A DNA stretch of 64,000 nucleotides, from assembly GCF_029227855.1 (NCBI RefSeq), contig NZ_CP074356.1, one strand, 5' to 3'. The stretch comes from Escherichia coli. Its GTDB lineage: Bacteria; Pseudomonadota; Gammaproteobacteria; Enterobacterales; Enterobacteriaceae. Position 1 is the first letter of the stretch, and each line of letters begins with the position of its first letter. Shown here one piece after another: positions 10,144 through 48,543 of this stretch. The translations under genes were made by a program, and so were the position numbers. The notes beneath the pieces are model-generated. The model was given only the letters and a program-made list of their open reading frames with translations. It was not told the origin of the DNA and did not search any database.

Positions 10144-11263
10144 CTCCCCGCAAGGACTGACGCCAGATAGTTTCTGTCCATGGCTGCTTTTCGCATCTTA
10201 CGTCTTAACCCTGCCTTGAATACCTTATCATTCGTCAAAATATTAATAGCGATGTGCCGTATCCCTGAAAATAATTCTGCTGCATTTCCTCTTCTTATTT
10301 TGCAGTCGTCTTCATTCATTACCACGTCCAGACGCCAGTGCAGCTTATTCTCCACGTGCCAGTGGTTTCGGATTGCTGTGGCGAACTTCTCTGCGGTTAA
10401 ATCAGCAGAACTAATATAATATCTGACCGCCATTTCTGGCTCTTTCTTTTGTTCTGCTATTATTGACCGAAAGGAGACTGCCACGCATAATTTCTTCAGA
10501 CCTTTCCATTCAAACGTGAAATCAATAAGTTCATCAGGGACATCGCAAACAATGTGAAGACGGATTTCTTCTCTGCCGTGACTCTTTTCACTCATTGCGT
10601 AACTGTCATGCTCTGGATTATTTAATTCTTTCAGCGGAAATTCTCGAAGGCTTTATTTAGCCGCCCCTGGTTTCCTTTTACAGCGAATAAATAATCACCT
10701 CCCTGTTTTTGTATCTTCTCTGCAATATCTTTCTGGCAACCCATCGCATCAGTTGTGATGATTTTTCCTTTAATATCCAGCATGTTAAGAAGTTCTGGGA
10801 TAGCTGTAATTTCATTGGATTTCTCATCCGTCCTGATCTGTCCGATGACCAGACTGTGCATTGTTGAGAACGCACTAATGACATGAATCGCTCCCTTGCG
10901 GCGACTCTTGTCATAAGAATGCCGGAGTGTTTTTCCATCAATTGCGATGACGTCTTTATCATCTGAAGTATGGCAATCTCGCATCCAGTTAATAAAGCAC
11001 TCGTGAAATTTTGCAGGACTGATACAGGATACAACTCTGGCGATGGTATCGTGAACAGGAATACCATTTTAAAAATCACCGTATTGTTTTAAAAAATCGA
11101 GATGTGTTTCCCCAAAATCCTCTATATCTTCCCAACCTTCCGCACCCGAAATAACAGCACAAATAGTCAACAGTAGAATATCCGATAATTTATGTTCCAC
11201 TTTCCAGGCTTGTCTGTAATCGGGGATAATAGAAATATGCCCCATCAATTTTTTAAGTTCTAT
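10131..11263 (-). pseudogene. ISAs1-family (H-repeat associated) transposase, decayed
   Basis: Three collinear pieces of an H-rpt protein: start codon is ATA not ATG (11261..11263), in-frame TAA after ..KQYGDF, and a roughly 4-nt deletion frameshift between 10595 and 10631. Confidence 0.8.
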
Positions 11264-11435
11264 TTTGTTCTCCTTAATTATGTAAGGAGTATTTGATCAT
11301 GTATAAGCAATAAAAAACAGCTTTAGGTAATGAGGAATATCTCAATTTTTAAGCATAAAATGCGAATTATTTAGTACAAAAAAGCAGCGTTACGTGATCT
11401 TTCCCTGCACTTCACCCTAACTTTAATTTAACTTC

Positions 11436-11475
11436 AAGAAGTATTAAGGCCTCAATAGCGAACTTAATACTTCTT
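11436..11475 (-). terminator. perfect 13-bp inverted repeat just past the Rhs immunity gene
   Basis: AAGAAGTATTAAG / CTTAATACTTCTT with 14-nt loop, directly 3' of the minus-strand operon end. Confidence 0.45.
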
Positions 11476-11483
11476 AAAGAATA

Positions 11484-11861
11484 TCACTCCTGACCAAAAT
11501 CTTTCCACACTAATGCATGAGACTTTGATTTATCACCCAAAAATTTACTTACATCTTTCCAAAGTAAAGAATTGCTATCGGTCGCAGTGACTATTGCCTC
11601 TATAAGCCCTGTAGCTACAACTGTGGCCAATTCATCATCAATCGAGACCATACCATCTTCGACATGTTTAAATATTTTTTCTCTTTCAATATCACCCATT
11701 TCATAAAAATTTTTTACAATCGTTTTTCCAATCTGAGAGAACAACATAACCACCGGTGGAGTTTCTGGATGCCAGTATTCATTAGCTAATGAGACTGTCT
11801 CAGACAAAACAGTGGAAAACGATGCCATTTTTTCTATATAATTAGCAATATATTGGTTCAT
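11484..11861 (-). CDS. putative immunity protein for the Rhs C-terminal toxin
   Basis: 125-aa acidic ORF whose ATG overlaps the Rhs stop (TAATG); AT-rich; no TM helix or signal peptide. Confidence 0.6.
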   Translation of the reverse strand: MNQYIANYIEKMASFSTVLSETVSLANEYWHPETPPVVMLFSQIGKTIVKNFYEMGDIEREKIFKHVEDGMVSIDDELATVVATGLIEAIVTATDSNSLLWKDVSKFLGDKSKSHALVWKDFGQE

Positions 11862-14800
11862 TACTTGCCTCCCAAAGCATTCTGTAAATCCTGAAGAACG
11901 TTTTCTGCTGCTGCTCGATCCCCTGGAGATGCTGTTGGATTCTTATCCAACCAATCCTGTAAAGCCCTTGTATAATCCTGTGCTTTCAATACATGTCCTC
12001 TACCACCAACTTTTTCACCTGTGGCCAATTCATAACGAACAGCATCTGCTGTGCTTCCACTTCCTACTTTTGCATTTGGCCGATAAAGATCGTCTATAAT
12101 ATTTTTCAAATTTGAATCTGTAACGTCAGGTTTTCCCATCTTCTGTCGCAATTCATCTTTATACCGTTCATGCTGCATACGATCTCTTGCGCTATTCTCA
12201 TCTTCTGGTCCCCATCCTCCCGGGCTTCCCGTACTGCCACCACCCAGGCAGTTCTTCTCTTCCTCCGTCAAATCCTTCCCGACATTTGGATTCTCTTTTG
12301 ATGAATCATCATTTCCAAACACGCTGGAAAAAGCACCATAGGGATCTCGCCAGAATTCCATTTGACTTTGTGCATTTAATAATTCGGCTTCACCCTGCAT
12401 CTCCATACTTTTCTCAATCGCGTCCCCAACAGCCTCGCGATTGTTGTATATTATTATACCACCACCAATAACCACCGTACCGACTGCCGCACCGACTAAC
12501 ATCCCCGGAGGGCCTCCTACCGAACCGATCTCTGTACCTACTTCAGAACCAGTTCCCATGGCAGTTAATGCTCCTGCGCCCAACGCCGCACTTAATCCCA
12601 GCGGATCCAGCCGTTGCACCGGGTTCAGTGGATACGCATACAGGTTCCATCCCCCCTTCAGCCCAATCGGATCCTGGGTGATATACCTCCCCTGTAGCGG
12701 GTCATAGTACCGGTGACGGTTGTAGTACAGCCCCGACTCCTCATCATACTGCTGCCCCGGCAGACGGAGTGACTGTTGAAGGTGCTGCGTGCTTTCCTCT
12801 CCCAGCAGGTTTCCCCACTCGTCATACTCCCCGCGCCACGCCGTTTCCCCTTCCGGGCTGATAAGCGCCTGCGGCAGCCCACGGTGGTCACAGTGGTAAA
12901 GATGAAGTTTCCTCTCCGGGATGTATTCCGCCTCCAGTTGCGCCGCCATCTGTTCCGCCGTCAACCCACACTGTGCAAGCCACTGCTGGCTTTCTTCACT
13001 CACGCTGCCCTGCCGCAGTTCCCGCTCCAGCCTCCCCAGCATCACCGCCAGCTCCGCCGGTAGCGTCACACCCGTGTCCTCCTGCAACACCTCCGCCAGG
13101 CTACGGTGCCGCGCCTTCGCCTGTTCGCCATTCTCTGTTTCGATTCTCAGGAGCGGCGTGAAGCTCCCCGGCTGGTATACCGTCTGGATACGCGTGGTGT
13201 CGGTCTGTACCGTCGTCAGCCTGTCGCCGTCCCACCCGTACCAGGTCACCTCCGGTTTACGCGACAGCGACATCCACCCCGTCAGGTCACGCTCCCGCCG
13301 CCACACCCGTTTTCCCGTCCGGCGGCCCAGCGGGTCATAGAGGTAGCGGCTCTCCACCTGTGGCTCGCCGTGCTGTATCCGCGTGTAGAACACCAGGCGG
13401 TGCTGGCTGTCGTAATGGTAGTGGTGCGTCCGCTCGTCGTGCATCCGTATCACCCCTTCCGGGATACGGTCCGTCTTCTCCGCCAGCCTGCCGTATTCAT
13501 CGTAGCGGTAGACATAGTGCGCATCTTCCGTGATGCGGTTATCCGGCCACGCCGTGAGGGTGCTGTCCGGGTGCAGTTCCGGGTCCGGCAGCCGGTTTCC
13601 TGCCGGGTCCGTCGCATACGGGATATCAATGTCCAGGTTCGCTGCCGTGGTGTGGACGCCCGTCAGCCTTCCCGTGTCGCTGTAACGGTACTCCCGGCTC
13701 TCCTGCGGGCCGCTGATGCGAATTAGCTGTCCGTTGTCGTTCCAGTCGTAGTCACGGTCAAGCTGCGGAAGGTTCAGGTGCCTGCTCCGGAGCTGGCCGC
13801 TGGTATTCCAGGCGGTGGCAAGCTCATATGCCTCCCCGCCGAAGCTGCGGGCCGTCTCACGGTGCAGCCGGTCCCGCGTGTACTCGACCAGTGGCGTACC
13901 ACCCAGCTTCATTCCCGCAAGATAACCGCTGCCATACGTCAGCCACTCCACCGGCGGCAGACCGTCCAGCTCCTGACGGGTCGCCAGCCCCTGTTCGCTG
14001 TACGCGTGCTTCGTCTCATGCTCCCACAGCATCTCCCCCGTCTCCGGGTTCTCCACCGTCTGCCGTTCGCCCGTCAGGCGGCCTTTATCGTCGTGGCCGT
14101 AGTGGACCGCCACACGGTGGCCTTCGCTGATATGGCTGATTTCTGTCAGCCAGCCGTGCTCATCATACTGCCACTGCTCCGCCGGGTCGCCGTTCACCGT
14201 CCGGTGCGTGATGCGGTCCGACGCATCGTAATGCCAGAGGGTGATAAGTCCCTCGTCTTCACTGTGGACAAGCTGCCCTGTGGCGCTGTACCGGTAACGC
14301 TGCGTCCTGCCGTCAAAGCCGCGCTGCTCCGTCAGCCTGTCCACCGGGTCATACCGGAACGTGGACTGGCTGCCGTTCTCGTTGGTCAGCACGGTGATGC
14401 GCCCGGCAGCGTCATACCCCATGCTGCGCGTCAGACCGCCTTCCGTCACACTCACCGGACGCCCGCGTTTATCATATTCGATGGTGCTGCGTTTACCGTC
14501 CGGTGATATCGTTGCTGTCAGGTCGCCTGCGGCGCTGTACTCATAACGGGTTTCACGCCCCTGCGCATCCTTCTGACTGACCAGTTGGCCTCGCGGGTTA
14601 TAACTGCTGTAAGTGCTGATGCCTTCCTCCCGGTGAACGGCGATTTGTTGACCGTACCGGTCATACTCATACCGCGTCATGTACCCCGAGCAGTCCGTGA
14701 AGGCCCGAAGCTGACCGTACCGGTTTCGCGTTATTCTCCGCGTCACCCCGATTCCGTCTTCCACCGCGCCGGGCAGGCTACTGCGGGGGGAGTCATAAAA

Positions 14801-16435: not shown

Positions 16436-18577
16436 TCAAAATTGCCGCATATCCGGCATTCCGGGGGGTAAATCTTTCGGCACAGGCGCATCCGGTACAG
16501 GTTGTGTGGCACCACAGTTCCAGTTAATCACCGGCGCATCACCGTTCACATCCGACTCTCCTTCCAGATGAATGTGCGTACCATTGAGAAATATGCTTCC
16601 GTCCTTCGTCAGCACCAACCTTGCCTTACCGCAGCAGAGTTCCAGATGCTCACCGGCAGAATAAACTGCTGTTTGTCCGGTGTTTTCCTTCATCGTCTTG
16701 CCCACCGAGAAGGTGACGTTATTCCCTACATTGACGCTGTAGCCCATTCCCACCATCAGTGATTTATGCAGCCCTACCTGTGAGGACTGCAACAACGCCA
16801 CCGAGGTATTCATGATGCCGCCTACCGTCGTCTGGTAAGCCACGCCCACCGTCAGCGCACGAATGATCCCCACCTTTTCAACCTGGTTTGAACCCACTTT
16901 GACAATCTGGTTGCTGCCTACCGTTTCCACCTGGTTGACACCAACCGTCTGTATCTGATTAACGCCAATGTTCTGGATCTGGTTATTGGTAACGGTGATC
17001 GCCTGGTTGTTACCTATTTTTTCGGCATGGTTGTTTATCACATCAGTGGTACGGTTATTCAGCACCTCGGTGTTCATGTTCTTCTGCGCGTGGATGTAGA
17101 CCTGTTCTTTCCCTGTCGCATCGTCAAACTTCAGTTCATTAAACCCGCTGCCCTTATAGGTTTTTGAACGAATGGTCATCTGCGTCTTTGTTCCCGGCAG
17201 GCTGCCGGGGGTGCGGTTTTCCTGGTGGTAGGTGCGCCCCATAATAATCGGCTGGTCCGGATCGCCGTTGAGGAAGTCCACAATGACTTCCTGACCCACA
17301 CGCGGTATCGCCAGGTTGCCAAAGCCGGTGCCTGCCCACGCCTGTGCCACACGGATCCAGCATGAACTGTCCTGGTTTGACGGGTTATAGCGGTCCCAGT
17401 TAAATTTCACCCGCACGCGGCCATGTTCATCACAGAAGATTTCTTCTCCTGCCGGTCCCGTCACGACGGCGCTCTGCGGGCCGTCCACCAGCGGTTTCAG
17501 CAACGGCTGTGGCCGCCATGTTCTGTCTGCCGGTATTACCGCAAAGTGGTTATTCAGCGTGGTACCTGAACCCCTGCGTCCCGGCACCGCCTGCGGCTGC
17601 TCGCCGTGCAGTTCACTTGCCACCACCTGCCATTCCCGGTTCAGGTTCGCCTGCGGATGCCCCGTCAGCGCAATTCGCCGTCCCGGCCATATCTCCGGCG
17701 AACGGCTTGTTCCGCGCGCCACTTCTGCGTTGTTTCGCCAGCCATCCATCTGCCAGCAGGCAAAGTTCTGCCCGTGGGCACCCTTGAAACGTCCGGGGTA
17801 GTCATACACTTCATACTGTGTGCGCTGGTAATCCTGGTGCTGGCCTTCCTGATCAAAACGCCCTGCCCAGCCGGGTCGTTTAAAGGTGTAGTCTTTGGTC
17901 ACCACGGAAGATGGGCGGATTTGTGCGCTGTAGAGGAACTGGCTGATGCATAGGGTGCTCACCTCGGTACGGGTGTTCGGATTCCAGGGGATCTCAAAGG
18001 ACTCCGGCAGATAACGCACGGTGTCGCACAGGACCAGGCTCTGGTCGGTACTTTTTTGCGCGTGCTCCTCATAAAAGAAGATGCCTTCCTCCGCCGCCAT
18101 CCGGCACAGGAAATCGTAATCGGTTTCGCCGTACTGGACACAAAACTCACGGGAAGGATGCGGCTCGCTGAACAGCGGACTCCACTCGGTCACCCCGTTT
18201 TCTTTCAGGATCGTCGCGAGTATGCTTTCGATGTCCTCATTCTGGAAGATACGGAAGTTCTGGCGCAGCCCTGTGCGCCACAGCGGTGGGCACACCTTCA
18301 TGCTGTACAGCATCTGGTTTTTGTCGTTCTCCCCCAGTTCAAACCAGGTCACCACACCTTTCACCCGGCGCTGTACGTCATCGCCCTGCCATACCGTCAG
18401 GTAGGCCATTTTGTCCAGCACCTGCGCAAATTCAAGGGAGAGAAACTGCTGGCTGACCAGAGAGAGATCGAGGGAAAAGAGCGAAGAGAGTGACTGGTTC
18501 AGATGAAAGGAGACCACCGCAAACGCGTCCGGTGGCAGGCCGTCCACTTCCAGCGTGAAACGTAATCCGGTTGACAT
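16436..18577 (-). CDS. vgrG: T6SS spike protein VgrG (TssI)
   Basis: 713 aa; typical VgrG N-terminus MSTGLRFTLEVDGLP, gp27/gp5-like regions with repeated VGxNQ motifs, C-terminal extension. Confidence 0.9.
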   Translation of the reverse strand: MSTGLRFTLEVDGLPPDAFAVVSFHLNQSLSSLFSLDLSLVSQQFLSLEFAQVLDKMAYLTVWQGDDVQRRVKGVVTWFELGENDKNQMLYSMKVCPPLWRTGLRQNFRIFQNEDIESILATILKENGVTEWSPLFSEPHPSREFCVQYGETDYDFLCRMAAEEGIFFYEEHAQKSTDQSLVLCDTVRYLPESFEIPWNPNTRTEVSTLCISQFLYSAQIRPSSVVTKDYTFKRPGWAGRFDQEGQHQDYQRTQYEVYDYPGRFKGAHGQNFACWQMDGWRNNAEVARGTSRSPEIWPGRRIALTGHPQANLNREWQVVASELHGEQPQAVPGRRGSGTTLNNHFAVIPADRTWRPQPLLKPLVDGPQSAVVTGPAGEEIFCDEHGRVRVKFNWDRYNPSNQDSSCWIRVAQAWAGTGFGNLAIPRVGQEVIVDFLNGDPDQPIIMGRTYHQENRTPGSLPGTKTQMTIRSKTYKGSGFNELKFDDATGKEQVYIHAQKNMNTEVLNNRTTDVINNHAEKIGNNQAITVTNNQIQNIGVNQIQTVGVNQVETVGSNQIVKVGSNQVEKVGIIRALTVGVAYQTTVGGIMNTSVALLQSSQVGLHKSLMVGMGYSVNVGNNVTFSVGKTMKENTGQTAVYSAGEHLELCCGKARLVLTKDGSIFLNGTHIHLEGESDVNGDAPVINWNCGATQPVPDAPVPKDLPPGMPDMRQF

Positions 18578-18743
18578 AGCAACCTCCGGGTTTAAGGAAA
18601 AACAGACAGTTCGCTGTTAAAGCGGCTGTAACAGTACAGTGTTACGCTTGCGTTCAGGCACGCTACCGCCGAAGTTTCCGGCATCCGCCATCTCCCGTGA
18701 ACGTAACCCCTTACTGACAACCTTTCTTTTTACGGCGTAATAC

Positions 18744-18771
18744 AAAAACAGCATCCGGCCTAATAGCCGGA
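18744..18771 (-). other. stem-loop between hcp and vgrG (possible partial terminator)
   Basis: CAGCATCCGGC / GCCGGATGCTG inverted repeat immediately 3' of the hcp stop, followed by a T-rich run on the transcribed strand. Confidence 0.4.
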
Positions 18772-18786
18772 TGCTGTTGGCTTAAC

Positions 18787-19305
18787 TTATGCTTCCAGCG
18801 GTGCGCGCCAGTCGTCGGCACCGGAGGTGCCAGACTTGACGTGTTCCCACTCTATTTTGCGGTAGGCCAGTGAAACTTCGAGCAACTGGGTGAACTCGCG
18901 TTTCGCCGGATCCTGGCAATGCGGCATATGCAGTTTCATATCGACAATCGTCGAATCGGTCAGGCGGGTGGTGAAATAATGCTCCTGTTTGCCTTCCACA
19001 GAGGTACGCCACCAGTGAAGTTCAGTGGTTGGCAGCATTTCGCCGGAGGCCAGTGCGTTGTACATCAGCGGAACAGCTTTGTTCAGCGCCACGGTAAAAA
19101 TGAACGGCTTGTGAGCACGCTGACCCGCAGGCTGGCCGGACTGAGGATCGGTCGGGACAGTAACGTTATGCAGGAATTCCTGCACCAGCATCTCGTCTTC
19201 GTGCCCCTGCACATAGATGTTGCCGACAGAATCAGCGGTAAATGCACCTGCAGTAATATTTCCCTGGGTCTGACCAGTGATGGAGATATAACACGGTGTT
19301 GGCAT
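18787..19305 (-). CDS. hcp: T6SS tube protein Hcp (TssD)
   Basis: 172 aa MPTPCYISITGQTQG...; close match to V. cholerae-type Hcp as I recall it. Confidence 0.95.
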   Translation of the reverse strand: MPTPCYISITGQTQGNITAGAFTADSVGNIYVQGHEDEMLVQEFLHNVTVPTDPQSGQPAGQRAHKPFIFTVALNKAVPLMYNALASGEMLPTTELHWWRTSVEGKQEHYFTTRLTDSTIVDMKLHMPHCQDPAKREFTQLLEVSLAYRKIEWEHVKSGTSGADDWRAPLEA

Positions 19306-19603
19306 TTGTAAACTCCTTGTTAACGTGGTTAATTACTACTTACAATGACCTGCCGTTAATCCCAGACAGGCAGATGCAGCTCACTTCACGGAACCGCATC
19401 ATTTTTCAGTATTTTTTACATACAAACCGAGCTAGAATTTACGGTTGTCGTAAAAACTATTTTTAAAATCATTAAATCTCTTATTCAGCAATAAGTTAAT
19501 AATATATATCTGGATAACCACACCCAACTATTCAAAGTCCGTATTGCCTCCATAAAATGGCCAAAGCTGAATCATGAATAAATATTGTATTTATCCTTTC
19601 TGA

Positions 19604-19620
19604 ATTATCATTTTGATAAT
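19604..19620. promoter_or_regulatory. Fur-box-like inverted hexamers in the hcp/tssB divergent region
   Basis: ATTATCATTTTGATAAT (ATTATC ... GATAAT) inside a roughly 700-bp AT-rich intergenic region. Confidence 0.3.
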
Positions 19621-20001
19621 TTTTGAGATATTCCTTAAAAATACCCACTTAATCAATCACAAAACAAATATATAAACAAGCAATCATCAGATTAGCTTAT
19701 GTTTAATGAAATTATTTTATAATTCAATAAGTTACACAAAGTCTCTGTATTTAAATTATTGCCATAATACACCTGACGCGAATTGCACAGGTTCACACAA
19801 TCTATTTAACGCTTGCAGAATACCCCTCTTTACGATCGATAAAAAGTCCTTTTCTTATTTATTTTGAAGCGTAGAATGCGGGGTGATGAAGGAGTGGTGA
19901 TTTTATTTTCACCGCCATTATGGCGGCATTGCCGATATTTTTTTGCGGTACAAATATGCCGTGTTCATGGCCTGTACGAGATAACATGACGGATCACTTT
20001 T

Positions 20002-20502
20002 ATGAGCAAAAAATTTGAAGGCAGCGTCGCGCCTCGCGAGCGTATTAATATATCGTATGTCCCAAAAACAGATGGCCAGACGGCTGAAGTTGAACTTCCG
20101 CTTAACATGCTCGTTGTCGGCGATACCGGAAATACGCAGGAAACATCCCCACTGGATGAACGTCAGGCAGTTTCCGTTAACAAGCACAATTTCGGTGCAG
20201 TGATGGCTGAAGCAGCCATTGGCCTCAATTTTACTGTCCCCGCCACGCTGAAGGGAAGCACAACAGACGATGAACTGAATGTGGCGCTGAATATCAAATC
20301 ACTGGATGATTTTTCACCAGATAGCGTGGCCCGGCAGGTTCCGGAAGTGAATAAATTGCTGGAACTGCGTGAAGCACTGACTGCACTGAAGGGGCCGATG
20401 GGTAACCTTCCGGCATTCCGTACCCAGCTCCAGGCATTGCTGGAAAATGAAGAGTCCCGCGAGCAGTTGCTCAAAGAAATCGGCCAGGTGAGCAATAAAT
20501 AA
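20002..20502 (+). CDS. tssB: T6SS contractile sheath small subunit TssB (VipA)
   Basis: 166 aa MSKKFEGSVAPRERINISYV... Confidence 0.95.
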   Translation: MSKKFEGSVAPRERINISYVPKTDGQTAEVELPLNMLVVGDTGNTQETSPLDERQAVSVNKHNFGAVMAEAAIGLNFTVPATLKGSTTDDELNVALNIKSLDDFSPDSVARQVPEVNKLLELREALTALKGPMGNLPAFRTQLQALLENEESREQLLKEIGQVSNK

Positions 20503-20537
20503 CCACCACTATTTCATTAAACAGGGGTTATCCAGGC

Positions 20538-20762
20538 ATGACGGCACACAAAAATATCTCCGGGACATACCACCTCTCTGTTGCAGACATTCTGCAGGTG
20601 GTTTACCAGGTATGTTTCAGCCCGTCCGTTGAAATCAACCAGGATGGTGTGGCTGCGCTGATTACAACACTGGATCGCCGTATCAGTGATCTATTGGATG
20701 AGATTATCCATTTTTGTGAGTTTCAGCAGAGCGCGTCGCACTGGCAGCGCGTACTTCACTGA
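20538..20762 (+). pseudogene. relic of a tssC 5' segment
   Basis: 74-aa ORF; its C-terminal half (LDRRISDLLDEIIHFCEFQQSASHWQ) parallels TssC residues about 70-100 (IDERISRQMDVIIHAPAFQQVESFWR). Confidence 0.5.
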
Positions 20763-29542: not shown

Positions 29543-32338
29543 ATGATCCAGATTGATCTTCCCACGCTGGTAAAACGGCTGAACCTGTTCTCCCGCCAGG
29601 CGCTGGAGATGGCCGCCTCTGAATGTATGAGTCAGCAGGCAGCGGAAATTACCGTCAGCCATGTGCTTATTCAGATGCTCGCCATGCCACGCAGCGACCT
29701 GCGGGTTATTACCCGCCAGGGCGATATTGGCATGGAAGAGTTGCGCCAGGCGCTGACGGTGGAGAACTACACAACTGCCCGTTCTGCGGACAGCTACCCG
29801 GCATTTTCCCCGATGCTGGTTGAGTGGCTGAAAGAGGGCTGGCTGCTGGCGTCGGCTGAGATGCAGCACAGCGAATTGCGTGGCGGCGTGTTGCTGCTGG
29901 CCCTGCTGCATTCGCCGCTGCGTTATATACCGCCTGCTGCCGCCCGGTTGTTGACCGGCATTAACCGTGACCGTCTGCAACAGGACTTTGTACAGTGGAC
30001 ACAGGAGTCGGCGGAATCAGTCGTGCCGGATGCAGACGGTAAAGTCGCAGGCACACTGACGGACGCTGCTGACACCCTGCTTGCCCGCTACGCCAAAAAC
30101 ATGACCGCAGACGCCCGTAACGGCAGGCTTGACCCGGTACTGTGCCGCGACCACGAAATCGACCTGATGATCGACATTCTCTGCCGCCGCCGCAAGAACA
30201 ACCCGGTGGTGGTGGGCGAAGCAGGCGTGGGTAAAAGTGCCTTAATCGAAGGGCTGGCGCTGCGCATCGTGGCAGGCCAGGTGCCGGACAAACTGAAAAA
30301 CACCGATATCATGACCCTTGACCTAGGCGCATTGCAGGCCGGGGCGTCGGTGAAGGGCGAATTCGAAAAACGCTTCAAGGGGCTGATGGCGGAGGTCATT
30401 TCCTCTCCGGTGCCGGTCATTCTGTTTATTGACGAAGCACATACCCTGATTGGCGCGGGCAACCAGCAGGGCGGGCTGGATATCTCCAACCTGCTCAAAC
30501 CGGCGCTGGCGCGCGGCGAACTGAAAACCATCGCCGCCACCACCTGGAGCGAATACAAAAAATACTTCGAGAAAGATGCCGCCCTGTCGCGCCGCTTCCA
30601 GCTGGTGAAGGTCAGCGAACCCAACGCCGCCGAAGCCACCATTATTCTGCGTGGTCTGTCGGCGGTCTATGAACAGTCTCACGGCGTGCTGATTGATGAT
30701 GACGCCTTGCAGGCCGCAGCAACGCTGAGCGAACGTTATCTCTCCGGGCGTCAGTTGCCGGACAAAGCCATTGATGTGCTGGATACCGCCTGCGCCCGCG
30801 TCGCCATTAACCTTTCCTCGCCGCCGAAGCAAATCTCGGCGCTGACCACTCTGAGCCACCAGCAGGAGGCGGAAATTCGCCAGCTTGAGCGCGAGCTTCG
30901 CATCGGGCTGCGTACCAACACCTCACGGATGACCGAGGTGCTGGTGCAGTACGATGAAACGCTGACGGCGCTGGATGAACTGGAAGCGGCCTGGCATCAG
31001 CAGCAGGCGCTGGTCCGGGAGATTATCGCGCTGCGCCAGCAGTTGCTGGGCGTGGCAGAAGACGATGCGGCGTCGTTGCCGGACGCAGATGCCGCGGAGG
31101 ATACGCCGCCAGAGTCAGAGTCAGAGTCAGAGTCAGAGTCAGAGTCAGAGTCAGAACAGGATAATACCGGTGCCGTACCGGCTGATGAGGCCGACAGAGA
31201 ACAGCCGGAAGAGACCGCTGAAACAGTTTCCCCGGTACAGCGGCTGGCCCAGCTCACTGCCGAACTGGACGCCCTGCATAACGACCGGTTGCTGGTCTCC
31301 CCGCACGTCGATAAAAAACAGATTGCGGCGGTGATTGCCGAATGGACCGGCGTGCCGCTCAACCGCCTGTCGCAGAATGAAATGTCGGTCATCACCGACC
31401 TGCCGAAATTGCTGGGCGACACCATCAAAGGCCAAGACCTGGCGATTGCCAGCCTGCATAAGCATCTACTGACCGCACGCGCCGACCTGCGTCTTCCGGG
31501 ACGCCCGCTCGGTGCGTTCCTGCTGGCTGGCCCCAGCGGTGTGGGTAAAACCGAAACCGTCCTGCAACTGGCAGAGCTGCTCTACGGCGGTCGCCAGTAC
31601 CTGACCACCATCAATATGTCCGAATTCCAGGAGAAACACACCGTCTCGCGGCTGATTGGTTCGCCTCCGGGCTACGTTGGCTACGGTGAAGGCGGCGTAC
31701 TGACCGAAGCGATTCGCCAGAAACCCTACTCGGTAGTACTGCTCGATGAAGTGGAAAAAGCGCACCCGGATGTGCTCAACCTGTTCTACCAGTCGTTCGA
31801 TAAGGGCGAAATGGCAGACGGTGAAGGCCGCCTGATTGACTGCAAAAATATCGTCTTCTTCCTGACGTCCAACCTCGGCTACCAGGTAATAGTCGAGCAC
31901 GCCGATGACCCGGAAACCATGCAGGAAGAACTGTATCCGGTGCTGGCCGACTTCTTCAAACCTGCCCTGCTGGCGCGTATGGAAGTGGTGCCGTATCTGC
32001 CGCTGTCGAAAGAGACGCTCGCCACCATTATCGCCGGAAAACTGGCCCGTCTGGATAACGTGCTGCGCAGTCGCTTTGGTGCAGAAGTGGTCATTGAACC
32101 GGAAGTGACGGACGAAATCATGAGCCGCGTCACCCGCGCGGAAAACGGCGCGAGGATGCTGGAATCGGTCATCGATGGCGACATGCTACCGCCGCTCTCG
32201 CTGCTGCTGTTGCAGAAAATGGCGGCTAACACGGCGATTGCCCGGATTCGGTTGTCGGCGGTGGACGACGCATTTACGGCAGACGTGGAAGATGCTCAGA
32301 ACGACGAGTCCGTCACAAAGGATGAAACGGTTTTATGA
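29543..32338 (+). CDS. clpV: T6SS AAA+ ATPase ClpV (TssH)
   Basis: 931 aa from ATG 29543 (RBS AAGGA); two Walker A motifs (GEAGVGKS, GPSGVGKT); track ORF has an upstream extension. Confidence 0.95.
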   Translation: MIQIDLPTLVKRLNLFSRQALEMAASECMSQQAAEITVSHVLIQMLAMPRSDLRVITRQGDIGMEELRQALTVENYTTARSADSYPAFSPMLVEWLKEGWLLASAEMQHSELRGGVLLLALLHSPLRYIPPAAARLLTGINRDRLQQDFVQWTQESAESVVPDADGKVAGTLTDAADTLLARYAKNMTADARNGRLDPVLCRDHEIDLMIDILCRRRKNNPVVVGEAGVGKSALIEGLALRIVAGQVPDKLKNTDIMTLDLGALQAGASVKGEFEKRFKGLMAEVISSPVPVILFIDEAHTLIGAGNQQGGLDISNLLKPALARGELKTIAATTWSEYKKYFEKDAALSRRFQLVKVSEPNAAEATIILRGLSAVYEQSHGVLIDDDALQAAATLSERYLSGRQLPDKAIDVLDTACARVAINLSSPPKQISALTTLSHQQEAEIRQLERELRIGLRTNTSRMTEVLVQYDETLTALDELEAAWHQQQALVREIIALRQQLLGVAEDDAASLPDADAAEDTPPESESESESESESESEQDNTGAVPADEADREQPEETAETVSPVQRLAQLTAELDALHNDRLLVSPHVDKKQIAAVIAEWTGVPLNRLSQNEMSVITDLPKLLGDTIKGQDLAIASLHKHLLTARADLRLPGRPLGAFLLAGPSGVGKTETVLQLAELLYGGRQYLTTINMSEFQEKHTVSRLIGSPPGYVGYGEGGVLTEAIRQKPYSVVLLDEVEKAHPDVLNLFYQSFDKGEMADGEGRLIDCKNIVFFLTSNLGYQVIVEHADDPETMQEELYPVLADFFKPALLARMEVVPYLPLSKETLATIIAGKLARLDNVLRSRFGAEVVIEPEVTDEIMSRVTRAENGARMLESVIDGDMLPPLSLLLLQKMAANTAIARIRLSAVDDAFTADVEDAQNDESVTKDETVL
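31111..31155 (+). repeat. (GAGTCA)7 in-frame hexanucleotide tandem repeat inside clpV
   Basis: AGAGTC x7, encoding (Ser-Glu)7 in an acidic linker between the two AAA+ modules. Confidence 0.9.
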
Positions 32339-39424: not shown

Positions 39425-39907
39425 ATGGCAAATATGAGTTATTTATCTTTGAGTGGAGAGACACAAGGGCTGATTTCAGCAGGTTGCTCAACGCTTGATT
39501 CTGTCGGAAACAAAGCACAGCCAGAACATAAAGATCAGATCATGGTTTATGCGTTAATGCATTCCATCTCAAGAAGTCAAAATGTCAATCATCATGAATT
39601 AATTATCACCAAACCGGTTGATAAATCCTCACCATTGCTGGCAAAAGCACTTAGTGACAATGAAAAAATGGTAACATGTGAATTTATACTCTACCGAACC
39701 AGTAAAGCGGGTATTTACCAGCCTTATTATAAAATAAACCTGTCAAAAGCCCGAATATCAAGTATTGATTTTGTCACACCGCATGCTGTCCTGGAAAAAG
39801 AACTGGAGCCACAGGAGAGAATTGCCTTTATTTATGAAGATATTTCCTGGGAGCATACGTTAGCCGGTACGAATGCAATGAGTAAATGGCAGGATCGTGT
39901 ACAGTAA
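39425..39907 (+). CDS. Hcp family protein, second divergent copy
   Basis: 160 aa MANMSYLSLSGETQGLISAG...; Hcp-like fold signature; AAGGAG RBS. Confidence 0.85.
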   Translation: MANMSYLSLSGETQGLISAGCSTLDSVGNKAQPEHKDQIMVYALMHSISRSQNVNHHELIITKPVDKSSPLLAKALSDNEKMVTCEFILYRTSKAGIYQPYYKINLSKARISSIDFVTPHAVLEKELEPQERIAFIYEDISWEHTLAGTNAMSKWQDRVQ

Positions 39908-39950
39908 TTTACTGTAATAACATAATAAATTACTATTGCGGAGAGATATA

Positions 39951-40865
39951 ATGGCTGGTTTAAGGAATAATAACAACACACAGAATGCACAGTGGGCTGA
40001 TTATGTGGGTGACATTCTTCGGGGGGCTCAACCGATAAACCAGCTAGTACCTCAGCACCCTTATCTTAACGACGTCCCACTCATTGATGAATTAAGGCGT
40101 CAGAACACTCATCATGTTATTCTCTTGACACTTGATGTTGCAAAAAAAATACTCAACTCAATAACATCATTTGATTACATTCATTTTATCACTACACATC
40201 CTTCAGGTATAAAAGATACACTCGCTTGGTTAGTTAACGCGGGTAAATTAATGACTGAGTTTGATGGAAATGGGAAAATTATATTTAACTTTAATACCTT
40301 AAAGTATACAAAAGCAAGTTACTTTGAAATACTTGGAGAGAAATATATAAAAATTACAACATCCAGCCCCTGGCTTTTAGAAAAGCTCGGTAAATATATT
40401 TTCTCTTCACGAGCGCCTCAAGTTCTGGAACTCGCTATTGGCTGGCGAGGAGCTTTATCTGAATCAATAAAAGGAGTTAAGTTCTGTATCTGGTTTTCAG
40501 TAGCCTGGAGAACCATAGAATTTATTATGAGTTCAGAGCGAGATCTGGTTAATTTTCTTGGTGATTTTTCAATGGATGTGGCCAAAGCAGTGATTGCAGG
40601 CGGTGTTGCAACTGCTATTGGAAGCCTGGCTTCTTTTGCCTGTCTTAGTTTTGGCCTTCCAGTAATTCTTGTAGGAGGAGCAATTTTACTTACAGGGATA
40701 GTGTGTACAGTTGTTTTAAATGAAATCGATGCTCAATACCATTTATCAGAAAAATTAAAAGATGCAATTAGAGATGGACTAAAACGGCAACAGGAACTTG
40801 ATAAATGGAAAAGGGAAAACATGACTCCATTTATGTATGTTCTTAACACTCCTCCCGTGATATGA
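39951..40865 (+). CDS. hypothetical protein with C-terminal glycine-zipper transmembrane region (candidate T6SS cargo)
   Basis: 304 aa from ATG 39951 (RBS GGAGAG); AT-rich; C-terminal AGGVATAIGSLASF...LPVILVGGAILLTGIV hydrophobic segments. Confidence 0.6.
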   Translation: MAGLRNNNNTQNAQWADYVGDILRGAQPINQLVPQHPYLNDVPLIDELRRQNTHHVILLTLDVAKKILNSITSFDYIHFITTHPSGIKDTLAWLVNAGKLMTEFDGNGKIIFNFNTLKYTKASYFEILGEKYIKITTSSPWLLEKLGKYIFSSRAPQVLELAIGWRGALSESIKGVKFCIWFSVAWRTIEFIMSSERDLVNFLGDFSMDVAKAVIAGGVATAIGSLASFACLSFGLPVILVGGAILLTGIVCTVVLNEIDAQYHLSEKLKDAIRDGLKRQQELDKWKRENMTPFMYVLNTPPVI

Positions 40866-40874
40866 GGATTAACT

Positions 40875-41129
40875 ATGCGTTTACATGTTAAATTGAAAGA
40901 GTTTTTTTCGATGTTTTTTATAGCCATATTATTTTTCCCTGCATTCAATGCTTCTTTATTTTTTACCGGAATTAAACCTCTATATTCAATAATAAAAGGC
41001 TCCACGGAAATATTTTATGATTGGAGAATGTTGATTCTATGCTTCGGTTTCATATCGTTTTCCTTGTTAAATATTCATGTAATTTTACTAACAATAATAA
41101 AATCATTCTTAATAAAAAAACAAAGGTAA
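40875..41129 (+). CDS. small hydrophobic protein, possibly the 5' part of a frameshifted membrane-protein gene
   Basis: 84-aa ORF with two predicted TM helices; ends just after an A7 run (41113..41119); ORF 41021..41341 continues in another frame. Confidence 0.4.
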   Translation: MRLHVKLKEFFSMFFIAILFFPAFNASLFFTGIKPLYSIIKGSTEIFYDWRMLILCFGFISFSLLNIHVILLTIIKSFLIKKQR

Positions 41130-41489
41130 TCAATTTCGCCACAGACATAACAATACAGCTAACTCTTATATTTTTACTAATAGCTATCGTAATAGCACCT
41201 TTAATAGCTCCTTTTGTCACAGGATATGTCAATGCTAATTATCACCCCTGCGGTAATAACACGGGGATTTTCCCAGGAGCAATCTATATTAAAAATGGCA
41301 TAAAATGTAATAATGAACATATTTCTCGCAAGGAAGATTAAGCAGTTAAATAATTAAATATTCTAAAACAAACAGTTTTTAACGCCGGATTCCATGTCCT
41401 TTCTTGCACTGTCTTTGTCAGGAACAATTTCTTATGCAAAGAATTTTGTATTATTGCCGCCAGAAATTCCTGGCGGCAGATATAATTTA

Positions 41490-42275
41490 TTATTGATAGC
41501 GGTTAACCAAATCTTTTACCATCGCTTTATAGGTCTTTTGCTTAAGTTGTATGATTTGCTGCTCTGTCATATCAGTCGTACTGGCTTCATTCTTGCCGGG
41601 AAATGGTGGAAGCACTTTATATTCATAATTCACCGGCGACCAGGCAGCCCACTCACCTGTAGCTACATCCACCAGCGTGAATCGCACCAGATAGCGCAGT
41701 GAGATTGTGTTAGTCAGTTTTTCATTTTTATAATCGGACCATACTGTTGATTTCAGTGCAGTGTCATATTTTCCTGTCTGCAACGTATCCTGGTAAACAA
41801 TAATCGCTTTCTGATGGCCTTTTGCCGCCACAAAACGTAATGCCTGCATCCAGTTCATATTTTCAGCACTGGCAACATCCTCGTTCTCATTTTTATCTTT
41901 GTTTTTGTTACAAGTCAGAGGCTTTTGTCTGTCCGGGATACCAGAGAATGTGGAAACAGTATAATATTTTCGCATCTCCTCCTGCATAATGGTTTCCGGT
42001 GCGCGGTTGCCGGATTGAACAAGTATTACAGGTGAATTAAGGGGAACGCGGAACTCATCTCCATCAAGCGCAGCTTGAATATCCTCCTCGGATACGGCTA
42101 GTGTGGTTTCATTACCAAATAAGTCTTTGTCTGTTAGTTGCTGCGGAGCGTTTTTATTAAAATTACTTTGTGTGGTTTGAGCTTTTTTCTTCTTTTCATC
42201 AATAAGAGATTCAGAGACACATCCTGCAAGCAGCGACAATAATACATATATACAACAAACCTTTTTTGAATTCAA
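41490..42275 (-). CDS. yafT: lipoprotein YafT
   Basis: 261 aa with lipobox LLAGC; AT-rich; matches the yafT position next to aspV. Confidence 0.85.
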
Positions 42276-42542
42276 AATCGGACACTCCCTCGTCTGTCAT
42301 AATCATGGTAATGTTTAGCTAACGATTTTTAATTATATACTCCACTTGAATCAGAACAAACAAAAATAATATTAAATATTAATTCATTAAATCAATAGAA
42401 TAATAAAAATTATAACATGGAAATATATTTAAATTGAATGATTCGCTGGTATTATTAAATATTAATGAATGGTCAATCATATATAATTACCACATTTACA
42501 GCATAACAAAATAATTGAACGAAGAAATTGTGGGGTTTAAAT

Positions 42543-42576
42543 ACAAAAAAAACCGCAAAATTAAAAATTTTGCGGT
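42543..42576 (-). terminator. rho-independent terminator downstream of aspV
   Basis: AACCGCAAAA / TTTTGCGGTT stem followed by a T8 run on the minus strand. Confidence 0.6.
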
Positions 42577-42604
42577 TCTCTGAACTCATTTTCATGAGTG
42601 AATT

Positions 42605-47772: not shown

Positions 47773-48543
47773 TTATGCTGCTTTATGTGCTTCTACAATG
47801 ATGATATCACTGGTGAAAGAGCCATCATTCTGCAAGGCAAAATACGTTTTCACCTCTGTCGATGCGCTCTGTTGGTAAATGCGAATAGCGTCTACTAACG
47901 CTTCTGGCGTACGCATTCTCGCGACCCATGAAGAAAATTCCAGCGGTAACTTATCTGTAATTAAATTATCAACTATCAGATTGGCTTCATTGATTAACGT
48001 CAACCACTCACCGCTGGCGTAGTTTCGTACGTGAGAGGTATCGCGTAATGCTTCTACCGTCTGTAACCAGACGTCGCGCACTGGGTGCCCCGGAGACATT
48101 ACGTCCATCACAATCAGCCTACCGCCAGGTTTCAATATCCTATTCACTTCTCGCAGTGCTGCACCAACATCATGCCAGTGATGGGCAGAATAACGGCTGA
48201 TAACAATATCAAATGCGTTATCGGCAAATGGCAGACTTTCGACATAACCCTGGCGGGTGGTGATATTTTTCAGTTGCCGGGCTTCGGCAGCTTGTGCCAC
48301 GACATCCAGCATGTGGGCAGATAAGTCATACGCCACCACCGCGCTCACGTTCTGCGCAGCGACAAAGCTGGCATGCCCTGCTCCGCAGCCCATATCAAGT
48401 ACACTTGCATCAGGATAATCAGCCAGACGCACCGCCAGGCGCTGTAAATCCCGTCCGGATGCATGTACGGTACTAGTCAGATATTCGCTAGCTTGAGAGC
48501 TAAACTGCTTTTCTACGTGGTCATGGTGGGATTGTGATGTCAT
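47773..48543 (-). CDS. yafE: SAM-dependent methyltransferase YafE
   Basis: 256 aa with DMGCGAGH motif. Confidence 0.9.
   Translation of the reverse strand: MTSQSHHDHVEKQFSSQASEYLTSTVHASGRDLQRLAVRLADYPDASVLDMGCGAGHASFVAAQNVSAVVAYDLSAHMLDVVAQAAEARQLKNITTRQGYVESLPFADNAFDIVISRYSAHHWHDVGAALREVNRILKPGGRLIVMDVMSPGHPVRDVWLQTVEALRDTSHVRNYASGEWLTLINEANLIVDNLITDKLPLEFSSWVARMRTPEALVDAIRIYQQSASTEVKTYFALQNDGSFTSDIIIVEAHKAA

What the first reader, a model, noticed from the sequence alone, without database searches (positions are those of the whole stretch)
19306..20001. Roughly 700-bp AT-rich divergent control region between hcp and tssB with a Fur-box-like palindrome
The two T6SS operons diverge from a long AT-rich spacer typical of H-NS-silenced horizontally acquired promoters. 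It contains ATTATCATTTTGATAAT (19604..19620), two inverted Fur-type hexamers, and few GATC sites. Since the island lacks vasH, iron/Fur and H-NS control are plausible substitutes, as reported for some E. coli T6SS loci.
Basis: partly seen in the sequence, partly recalled or inferred. Interest (0 to 1): 0.4.

Follow-up and report, generated by a model that had tools for sequence, protein, structure and literature searches.

The report
Known H-NS-silenced T6SS promoter, not Fur
The AT-rich spacer between hcp and tssB is the already-studied, H-NS-silenced two-way promoter of the common E. coli type VI secretion cluster, and its "Fur-like" palindrome does not behave like an iron-regulator site by sequence score, geometry, conservation or published in-vivo binding data.

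Summary
The palindrome is present and slightly longer than described: AATTATCAtttTGATAATT, 19603-19621.

The window is E. coli. The spacer occurs at 95% identity or more in 2,235 of 5,426 complete genomes. It is the published EHEC "t6sP" bidirectional promoter of T6SS-2, and the published primers match it. H-NS repression of this locus is already documented.

The Fur reading fails every test I could run:
- **Geometry:** the two hexamers face outward with a 5-nt gap, not the 7-1-7 Fur arrangement.
- **Score:** a Fur matrix built from 11 MG1655 Fur-regulated promoters gives 4.7 bits, against 9.9-21.4 for true sites. The best score anywhere in the spacer equals the shuffle mean.
- **Conservation:** the palindrome is broken in E. 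albertii and absent from more distant orthologues.
- **In vivo:** published Fur ChIP-exo in O157:H7 Sakai, which carries the identical palindrome, shows no peak within about 70 kb, and the genes are absent from the Fur regulon tables.

The residual interest is a strongly conserved central core with two same-geometry palindromes. It could be a site for the still-unknown T6SS-2 activator. Overall this is already known and of low interest.

The parts
19306..20001 (.). hcp-tssB spacer, equal to the published 't6sP' bidirectional promoter region of E. coli T6SS-2. It is AT-rich and H-NS-silenced.
   Evidence: 696 bp, 33.5% GC. (2,235 of 5,426 genomes at >=95% identity, no annotated feature). (published t6sP primers match 19312-19331 and 19977-19996). 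(H-NS repression in EHEC).
18787..19305 (-). hcp (Hcp3/Hcp2B type), first gene of the leftward operon.
   Evidence: 94-100% protein identity in the orthologous loci.
20002..20502 (+). tssB, first gene of the rightward structural operon.
   Evidence: the tssB operon is a single polycistronic unit in EHEC (PMC13141884).
19603..19621 (.). It contains the outward-facing hexamers ATTATC (19604) and GATAAT (19615). It also holds -35-like hexamers on both strands: TTGATA at 19613-19618 (plus) and ATGATA at 19611-19606 (minus).
   Evidence: Fur matrix score 4.7 bits. No 7-1-7 match. The right arm TTGATAATTT matches the H-NS motif TCGATAAATT at 8 of 10 positions. The left arm is not kept in E. albertii.
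19578..19594 (.). Second perfect palindrome, ATAAATAttgTATTTAT (7-3-7), 26 bp centre-to-centre from the first. It overlaps the -10-like TACAAT on the minus strand (19589-19584).
   Evidence: It lies inside a 35-nt run (19562-19596) that is 100% identical in E. albertii.
19531..19687 (.). Central conserved core of the spacer.
   Evidence: There are no differences from O157:H7 Sakai across these 157 nt, although the spacer as a whole differs by about 3%. The 61-bp piece 19582-19642 is 100% identical in 1,964 of 2,228 genomes. It is the best-conserved block against E. albertii, at 87-100% with flanks at 20-50%.
19811..19877 (+). Block conserved across genera upstream of tssB: G.A..ATAC ... AAA.AGT.CTT.T ... 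GTAnAAT. It ends in a -10-like hexamer (TAGAAT here, TAAAAT in EHEC, E. albertii, Yokenella and C. youngae) at 19872-19877, about 125 nt before the tssB ATG. This is a candidate proximal tssB promoter or activator site.
   Evidence: Invariant columns in the six-sequence alignment A2; identity profile. The promoter assignment is inference; no transcription start data were available.
19349..19370 (-). Hairpin in the hcp 5' leader with GGA in the loop (RNA: CCUGUC-UGGGAUUAAC-GGCAGG), 46 nt upstream of the GGA in the Shine-Dalgarno sequence.
   Evidence: fold; 95% of cells paired in six orthologues, 3 of 7 pairs with changes on both sides, and 33-58% paired in the slid controls. With only six sequences this is suggestive, not proven.
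19313..19318 (-). hcp Shine-Dalgarno sequence (AAGGAG on the minus strand).
   Evidence: Invariant in all orthologues.
19834..19837 (.). GATC site, 214 bp from the palindrome. It lies next to TCGATAAAAA (19836-19845), an 8-of-10 match to the H-NS motif.
19992..19995 (.). GATC site just upstream of the tssB start codon.

Best explanation
The spacer is the bidirectional promoter and leader region ('t6sP') of the E. coli T6SS-2 cluster.

Its 27%-GC core is bound by H-NS and kept transcriptionally silent under laboratory conditions. When silencing is relieved, sigma-70-type promoters in the spacer fire leftward into hcp-vgrG-rhs and rightward into the tssB structural operon. Both transcripts carry long leaders, probably over 100 nt, whose gene-proximal parts are conserved.

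Fur plays no part. The palindrome at 19603-19621 is not a Fur operator. It lies in the most conserved central core of the spacer and is most simply read as back-to-back -35-like hexamers and/or H-NS-preferred sequence. It could possibly be the site of an unidentified dimeric regulator.

Shown here or in the literature: the identity of the region, its AT-richness, H-NS repression, and the absence of Fur occupancy.

Inferred: the positions of the promoters, the long leaders, and the role of the core.
For: - **Identity.** The spacer is found at >=95% identity in 2,235 complete E. coli genomes, including O157:H7. The published t6sP cloning primers match the ends of the spacer.
- **H-NS.** In EHEC, T6SS transcripts rise in an hns mutant and fall on complementation (PMC5363993). 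t6sP reporters are nearly silent in wild type and rise in the hns mutant, and H-NS is stated to bind between hcp3 and tssB (PMC13141884). The core is 27% GC and holds 18 A/T tracts of 4 or more. It has 4 of the window's 70 near-matches to TCGATAAATT in 1% of the sequence.
- **Conserved property.** Length (635-702 bp) and AT-richness (29-33.5% GC) are kept in E. albertii, Yokenella, C. youngae and the B2-type variant, even where the sequence has turned over.
- **No Fur.** The matrix, consensus and 7-1-7 tests are all negative. There is no Fur ChIP-exo peak in Sakai under iron-replete or dipyridyl conditions. The genes are absent from the Fur pan-regulon tables. The same study did detect T6SS genes of strain 042 in its Fur regulon, so the assay can see T6SS loci. 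Reporters were not induced in sci1-inducing medium.
- **Related variant.** In the B2-type T6SS2 of APEC, iron limitation and fur deletion had no effect, while hns deletion derepressed (PMC5874247). The 042 copy has no Fur entries.
Against: - I could not read the one paper that mapped transcription starts and H-NS binding here (Kim et al. 2022, J Microbiol 60:928; not held). The promoter positions are therefore inferred from hexamers, which are no more frequent than in shuffles (5 against 4.3).
- A weak Fur score alone does not exclude binding. The functional sci1 Fur boxes match only 13 and 11 of 19 consensus positions. The spacer has a run of 11-13/19 matches at 3- and 6-bp phasing over 19577-19645.
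- The ChIP-exo was done with H-NS present, and an H-NS filament could mask a weak Fur site.
- The APEC and 042 negatives come from a variant spacer that lacks the palindrome.
- hns deletion alone gives poor protein expression in EHEC, so further, unidentified control exists.
Confidence: 0.85

Rival explanations
1. One reading: the palindrome is a Fur operator, so that iron limitation derepresses hcp and tssB, standing in for the missing VasH activator.
For: The palindrome contains two exact GATAAT-type hexamers. The spacer has clustered 11-13/19 consensus matches at 3- and 6-bp phasing around 19577-19645. Functional Fur boxes in the EAEC sci1 promoter are equally weak, at 13/19 and 11/19. Fur does control other E. 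coli T6SS clusters: sci1 and APEC T6SS1.
Against: - The hexamers are in the wrong orientation and spacing (R-N5-F), and there is no 7-1-7 match.
- The palindrome scores 4.7 bits against 9.9-21.4 for true sites. The regional maximum equals the shuffle mean, and an H-NS control spacer scores higher.
- It is not conserved in E. albertii or in more distant orthologues.
- There is no Fur ChIP-exo peak in Sakai, which has the identical palindrome, and the genes are not in the Fur regulon tables.
- EHEC reporters were not induced in low-iron sci1-inducing medium.
- A transcription-factor scan of t6sP by the EHEC authors listed ArgP, CysB, CytR, Fis, LeuO and NarL/P, but not Fur.
Confidence: 0.04
2. 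The two same-geometry palindromes (19578-19594 and 19603-19621) in the conserved central core are operators for an unidentified dimeric regulator. This would be an activator or anti-silencer (or a repressor) that sets when T6SS-2 fires.
For: - Two perfect palindromes with the same 3-nt spacer lie 26 bp apart. The chance of this in dinucleotide shuffles is about 0.005.
- They sit in the best-conserved part of the spacer: 157 nt invariant against Sakai, a 35-nt run identical in E. albertii, and a 61-bp piece identical in 88% of genomes when about 19% would be expected at the spacer's average divergence.
- hns deletion alone does not give full expression, and the natural signal is unknown.
Against: - The statistics are post hoc and the DNA is 27% GC.
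- The left arm of the second palindrome is broken in E. albertii, and a 4-nt insertion changes the spacing between the two.
- Neither palindrome exists in the B2-type variant, Yokenella or C. youngae.
- No known E. coli motif that I tried fits: Fur, IHF, sigma-54, CpxR, the RcsAB box (the last two by eye).
- No other copy of the motif is in the window.
Confidence: 0.2
3. The palindrome has no regulator of its own. It is a by-product of two divergent sigma-70 promoters placed back to back (-35-like TTGATA rightward, ATGATA leftward), or simply of AT-rich sequence that H-NS prefers.
For: The promoter scan finds ATGATA-16-TACAAT on the minus strand (19611-19584) and TTGATA-18-AAAAAT on the plus strand (19613-19642), sharing the palindrome as their -35 region. 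The right arm matches the H-NS motif at 8 of 10 positions. About 0.5 perfect palindromes are expected by chance in this spacer.
Against: Promoter-like sites are no more frequent than in shuffles. The leftward -35 and its spacing are not kept in E. albertii. Blocks conserved across genera nearer each gene, for example GTAnAAT at 19871-19877, are better candidates for the main promoters. No transcription start data are available to me.
Confidence: 0.4

Closest known systems
EHEC O157:H7 't6sP' bidirectional promoter between hcp3 (z0266) and tssB (z0264) (Wan 2017, PMC5363993; Kim 2022, J Microbiol 60:928; Vazquez-Lopez 2026, PMC13141884)
   Same: It is the same locus. The sequence is 96.8% identical over all 696 bp with an identical central core and palindrome, the flanking genes are the same, and the published primers match. 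It is H-NS repressed and silent in vitro, and the natural inducing signal is unknown.
   Different: Only strain-level polymorphism, about 22 differences, mostly in 19688-19800 and 19917-19952. The third palindrome, at 19912-19926, is broken in EHEC.
EAEC sci1 (T6SS-1) promoter: the Fur / Dam-methylation switch (Brunet 2011, PMC3145626)
   Same: It is an E. coli T6SS promoter upstream of tssB that is poorly expressed in rich medium and has only weak matches to the Fur consensus.
   Different: It is a different cluster and an unrelated promoter sequence. sci1 has Fur boxes overlapping the -10 element and three GATC sites within 53 nt, one of them inside the Fur box. Here there are only two GATC sites, 214 and 372 bp from the palindrome, with no Fur occupancy in vivo and no induction in sci1-inducing medium.
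APEC / EAEC 042 T6SS2 (B2-type variant) hcp2B-vipA2 divergent region (Ma 2018, PMC5874247; Yi 2019, PMC6534853)
   Same: It has the same chromosomal site (aspV), the same divergent hcp | tssB layout and a spacer of about 700 bp at 32-33% GC. Hcp is 94% identical. It is H-NS repressed and does not respond to Fur or iron.
   Different: TssB is only 55% identical. The centre of the spacer is not alignable and lacks both palindromes. The CpxR-binding segment of APEC lies in a stretch that is absent from the window.
H-NS-silenced horizontally acquired promoters in general (for example Salmonella SPI-6 T6SS, cited in PMC5363993)
   Same: There is a sharp AT-rich trough at the promoter of an accessory island, with repression relieved by hns deletion.
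   Different: The T6SS-2 coding genes themselves are not AT-rich (50-60% GC). The AT-rich signal is confined to the spacer and to a few effector or immunity segments.

Membership tests
Fur operator (Fur box) | Inverted-repeat geometry of the 19-bp box GATAATGATAATCATTATC, or the 7-1-7 motif TGATAATnATTATCA | tested here: not met
   The hexamers are everted with a 5-nt gap (ATTATC-N5-GATAAT). No 7-1-7 match with 3 or fewer mismatches lies in the spacer. The palindrome matches 11-12 of 19 consensus positions, while an H-NS control spacer reaches 14 of 19.
Fur operator (Fur box) | Position-weight-matrix score within the range of footprinted E. coli sites | tested here: not met
   On my own 11-site matrix, true sites score 9.9-21.4 bits when each is left out of training. 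The palindrome scores 4.7. The best score in the spacer, 9.9, equals the shuffle mean of 10.3 +/- 2.3. Caveat: the matrix is small and home-made.
Fur operator (Fur box) | Fur occupancy in vivo | not testable with these tools
   Published Fur ChIP-exo in O157:H7 Sakai has no peak between 193,075 and 288,115, and the spacer is at 263,438-264,133 with the palindrome intact. H-NS was present in those cells.
Fur operator (Fur box) | Expression of the flanking genes depends on iron or fur | not testable with these tools
   ECs0228-0239 are absent from the Fur pan-regulon tables (the raw DESeq table was cut when stored). EHEC reporters were not induced in sci1-inducing medium. The B2-type variant in APEC is unaffected by iron or fur.
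Fur operator (Fur box) | Conservation of the site in orthologous promoters | tested here: not met
   The left arm is changed in E. albertii. The site is absent from the B2-type variant, Yokenella and C. youngae, and none of these spacers scores above 12 bits.
Fur/Dam epigenetic switch (sci1 type) | A GATC site inside or beside the Fur box, with clustered GATC sites around the core promoter | tested here: not met
   There are two GATC sites, at 19834 and 19992, as expected from composition (2.1). Neither is within 200 bp of the palindrome.
H-NS-silenced xenogeneic promoter | A local AT-rich trough well below the genome average, with A/T tracts and H-NS motif matches | tested here: met
   The core is 27.4% GC against 52% for the window. 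It has 18 A/T tracts of 4 or more and 4 near-matches to TCGATAAATT where 0.76 would be expected pro rata.
H-NS-silenced xenogeneic promoter | Derepression in an hns mutant and direct H-NS binding | not testable with these tools
   This is published for the 96.8%-identical EHEC locus. The paper with the binding data (Kim 2022) is not held.
Sigma-54 / VasH-dependent T6SS promoter | A -24/-12 element (TGGCAC-N5-TTGCW) and a VasH-type activator gene in the cluster | tested here: not met
   No match with 3 or fewer mismatches lies within 19306-20001. There is no sigma-54 activator in the colinear EHEC annotation.
Curated RNA families (Rfam) | A match to any Rfam covariance model in the spacer or leaders | tested here: not met
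   There were no matches up to E = 1 over 18500-20600 on either strand.

The most novel reading that the evidence does not exclude
The invariant central core (19531-19687) holds two perfect palindromes of identical 3-nt-spacer geometry. It could be the docking site of the still-unidentified regulator that relieves H-NS silencing of T6SS-2, the most widespread E. coli T6SS, whose natural inducing signal nobody has found.
Probability: 0.15. Interest if true: 0.5.

Novelty: already known. Interest (0 to 1): 0.15.

Why it matters
T6SS-2 is the most common type VI system in E. coli. It is present in about 40% of complete genomes in this exact promoter variant, and it contributes to EHEC virulence. 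It is nevertheless silent in the laboratory and its trigger is unknown.

Showing that the tempting "Fur box" is not one saves wet-lab effort on iron and fur experiments. It redirects attention to the conserved central core, the proximal blocks conserved across genera, and the post-initiation elements in the hcp leader and the hcp-vgrG spacer.

Tried and rejected
- **Rfam scan** of 18500-20600 found nothing.
- **Fur tests:** consensus matching, a home-made matrix and the 7-1-7 pattern were all negative.
- **Sigma-54 promoter pattern:** no match in the spacer.
- **IHF core WATCAANNNNTTR:** no exact match in the spacer; the palindrome is one mismatch off (and by eye).
- **RfaH ops element in the tssB leader:** none. 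GGCGGCATTGCC at 19923 is only 7 of 12 and is not kept in EHEC.
- **Terminator-like hairpin plus T-run at 19921-19944 and GC-rich palindrome at 19912-19926:** not conserved even in EHEC, so I dismissed them.
- **Small ORFs in the spacer** (for example the 53-aa ORF at 19706-19867, perhaps the old 'z0265'; and the 32-aa upstream ORF at 19920-20018). The first is frameshifted by a 1-nt indel in EHEC. The second has no start codon in the B2-type variant. None is annotated in 2,235 RefSeq genomes.
- **CpxR site described for APEC hcp2B:** it lies in a segment missing from the window.
- **Leader RNA folds:** the z-scores are unremarkable, at -2.1 and -1.6.
- **Other copies of the palindrome in the window:** none with 1 mismatch or fewer.
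- **Kim et al. 2022** (transcription start mapping of this promoter) could not be read.

Full report
**What is there.** hcp (18787..19305, minus strand) and tssB (20002..20502, plus strand) diverge from a 696-bp spacer. The spacer is 33.5% GC overall and 27.4% over 19400-19800. The window is 52% GC and the flanking genes are 50-56%.

**Where it comes from.** The spacer is E. coli chromosomal DNA. It is found once per genome, at 95% identity or more, in 2,235 of 5,426 complete genomes. No feature is annotated under it in any of them. In EHEC 86-24 it lies in the T6SS island next to yafV-ivy-fadE. The window is colinear with that island at 95.9% from rhs to vasL, and the island has no VasH-type activator.

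This is T6SS-2, and the spacer is the published 't6sP' bidirectional promoter. The cloning primers t6sPBamHIF and t6sPBamHIR of Vazquez-Lopez et al. 2026 match window 19977-19996 and 19312-19331.

**H-NS is supported and already known.**
- In EHEC the cluster is nearly silent in vitro. Changes of salt, pH, medium and temperature do not induce it.
- hns deletion raises the transcripts, 60-fold for z0264, and complementation reverses this (PMC5363993).
- The 2026 study states that H-NS binds between hcp3 and tssB. It shows t6sP reporters rising in an hns mutant. It finds that hns deletion alone is not enough for full protein expression and that the natural signal is still unknown.
- The sequence fits this picture. 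The core holds 18 A/T tracts of 4 or more. It has four near-matches to the H-NS motif TCGATAAATT where 0.76 would be expected pro rata, and one of them is the right arm of the palindrome.
- Orthologous spacers in E. albertii, Yokenella regensburgei, Citrobacter youngae and the B2-type E. coli variant keep the length (635-702 bp) and the AT-richness (29-33% GC). They do so even where the central sequence cannot be aligned.

**Fur is not supported, on five independent grounds.**

1. *Geometry.* The Fur box is GATAAT-GATAAT-c-ATTATC, or equivalently the 7-1-7 motif TGATAATnATTATCA. Here the two hexamers face outward with a 5-nt gap (ATTATC-N5-GATAAT). Their start positions are 11 bp apart, outside the 6-bp register. 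No 7-1-7 match with 3 or fewer mismatches lies in the spacer.

2. *Score.* I fetched eleven Fur-regulated MG1655 intergenic regions: fepA-fes, fepD-entS, fepB-entC, fhuA, fur, tonB, cirA, sodA, fecA, fecI and fhuF-yjjZ. From these I built a symmetrised 19-bp matrix.

| Sequence scored | Fur matrix score (bits) |
|---|---|
| True sites, each left out of training | 9.9-21.4 |
| The palindrome | 4.7 |
| Best site anywhere in the spacer | 9.9 |
| Dinucleotide shuffles of the spacer (mean +/- sd) | 10.3 +/- 2.3 |
| H-NS-bound control spacer (yjjP-yjjQ) | 12.8 |

Simple consensus matching gives 11-12 of 19 at the palindrome and 14 of 19 in the negative control. Two GATAAT-type hexamers in this spacer is not more than chance (P = 0.24).

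3. *Conservation.* E. albertii keeps the right arm but changes the left one (AATCTCA). The B2-type variant, Yokenella and C. youngae have no trace of the palindrome.

4. *In-vivo binding.* Gao et al. 2023 (PMC10164565) mapped Fur by ChIP-exo in nine strains, with 0.1 mM FeCl2 and with 0.2 mM dipyridyl. In O157:H7 Sakai the spacer is at 263,438-264,133 and carries both palindromes intact. The peak list jumps from 193,075 to 288,115. None of ECs0228-0239 appears in the binding or pan-regulon tables. The same study did place T6SS genes of strain 042 in its Fur regulon, so T6SS loci are visible to the method.

5. *Expression.* EHEC tssB and hcp3 promoter-lux reporters were tested in media that included the low-iron sci1-inducing medium, and no condition consistently activated them.

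For the related B2-type T6SS2 of APEC, iron limitation and fur deletion had no effect, while hns deletion derepressed the genes. The 042 copy has no Fur entries. The B2-type spacer lacks the palindrome, so this last evidence bears on the system rather than on the site.

**Caveats.**
- The functional sci1 Fur boxes match only 13 and 11 of 19 consensus positions, so a weak score alone is not exclusion.
- The ChIP-exo was done with H-NS present, which could mask a weak site.
- I could not read Kim et al. 2022, which mapped transcription starts here.

**GATC.** The two sites (19834, 19992) equal the number expected from composition (2.1) and are far from the palindrome. The sci1-type Fur/Dam architecture of three GATC sites within 53 nt, one inside the Fur box, is absent.

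**What the palindrome may be.** It sits in the best-conserved part of the spacer.
- 157 nt (19531-19687) are identical to Sakai, although the spacers differ by about 3% overall.
- The 61-bp piece 19582-19642 is identical in 88% of genomes.
- E. albertii keeps 19562-19596 and 19608-19630 perfectly, while the flanks fall to 20-50% identity.

A second perfect palindrome with the same 3-nt spacer, ATAAATAttgTATTTAT, lies at 19578-19594. Two such palindromes occur in about 0.5% of shuffles, though this statistic is post hoc.

The promoter scan places a leftward ATGATA-16-TACAAT and a rightward TTGATA-18-AAAAAT that share the palindrome as a back-to-back -35 region. Such hexamer pairs are no more frequent here than in shuffles, however. 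I therefore rank the possibilities as follows: promoter or H-NS by-product, about 0.4; operator for an unknown dimeric regulator, about 0.2; Fur, about 0.04.

**Other anatomy inside the spacer.**
- A block conserved across genera (19811-19877) ends in an invariant GTAnAAT about 125 nt before the tssB ATG. This is TAGAAT here and TAAAAT in four of the five other sequences compared (EHEC, E. albertii, Yokenella and C. youngae). It is a candidate proximal tssB promoter.
- The hcp leader carries a hairpin (19349-19370, minus strand) with GGA in its loop, 46 nt upstream of the GGA in the Shine-Dalgarno sequence. The stem is kept with changes on both sides in 3 of 7 pairs across six orthologues. In total 95% of cells are paired, against 33-58% in the slid controls. 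This is a CsrA-like dual-site arrangement, in line with the CsrA suggestion in PMC13141884.

**Verdict.** The Fur half is not supported. Novelty: already known. Interest is low, apart from the conserved core as a lead to the missing T6SS-2 activator.

Noticed in passing
window 18659-18670, minus strand (hcp-vgrG spacer 18578-18786): There is a perfect RfaH ops element, GGCGGTAGCGTG, on the hcp/vgrG strand. It lies about 85 nt after a terminator-like hairpin that follows the hcp stop codon, and 82 nt before the vgrG ATG. It is kept at the same place in EHEC 86-24, Sakai, E. albertii and Yokenella, but not in the B2-type variant or C. youngae. The 2026 study of this spacer ('h3R') never mentions RfaH or ops. 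A 2025 preprint notes in passing that the EDL933 T6SS cluster carries ops elements. RfaH-dependent read-through could explain why vgrG and rhs stay unexpressed after promoter swapping.
   Followed up: partly
window 19349-19370, minus strand, with 19313-19318: The hcp 5' leader has a hairpin with GGA in its loop, and a second GGA lies in the Shine-Dalgarno sequence 46 nt downstream. This is a CsrA-type dual-site layout. The stem is supported by compensatory changes in six orthologues.
   Followed up: partly
L002, L003, L017 (E. coli H22, HYM1, 042) compared with window 18787-20502: The 'T6SS-2' of B2-type, APEC and 042 strains sits at the same aspV site and has a 94%-identical Hcp, but its TssB is only 55% identical and the centre of the spacer is unrelated. 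The two halves of the locus therefore have different histories, and regulatory results from APEC T6SS2 (for example the CpxR site) do not transfer to this variant.
   Followed up: partly
window 20538-20762, plus strand: A 74-aa ORF lies between tssB and tssC. It is annotated as a hypothetical protein (WP_000123970.1) in EHEC and is absent from the B2-type variant, where tssC follows tssB directly.
   Followed up: no
window 32182-32193 and 48115-48126, minus strand: There are two further exact matches to the ops core GGCGGTAGnnTG. One is antisense inside clpV/tssH and is also present in EHEC. The other is inside a 256-aa ORF outside the island. That makes three exact matches in 64 kb, where roughly 0.1 would be expected for ten fixed bases (my estimate). 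These two are probably not functional, but I did not examine them.
   Followed up: no
window 10200-12000 and 39600-42600: These are the other AT-rich troughs (30-41% GC) of the island. One is at the Rhs C-terminal / immunity end and the other is just beyond the second hcp. They are likely further H-NS-bound segments.
   Followed up: no
window 19912-19926 and 19921-19944, plus strand: The tssB leader contains a GC-rich palindrome, CCGCCATtATGGCGG, and a terminator-like hairpin with a T-run. Both are disrupted in EHEC, so they are probably without function.
   Followed up: yes
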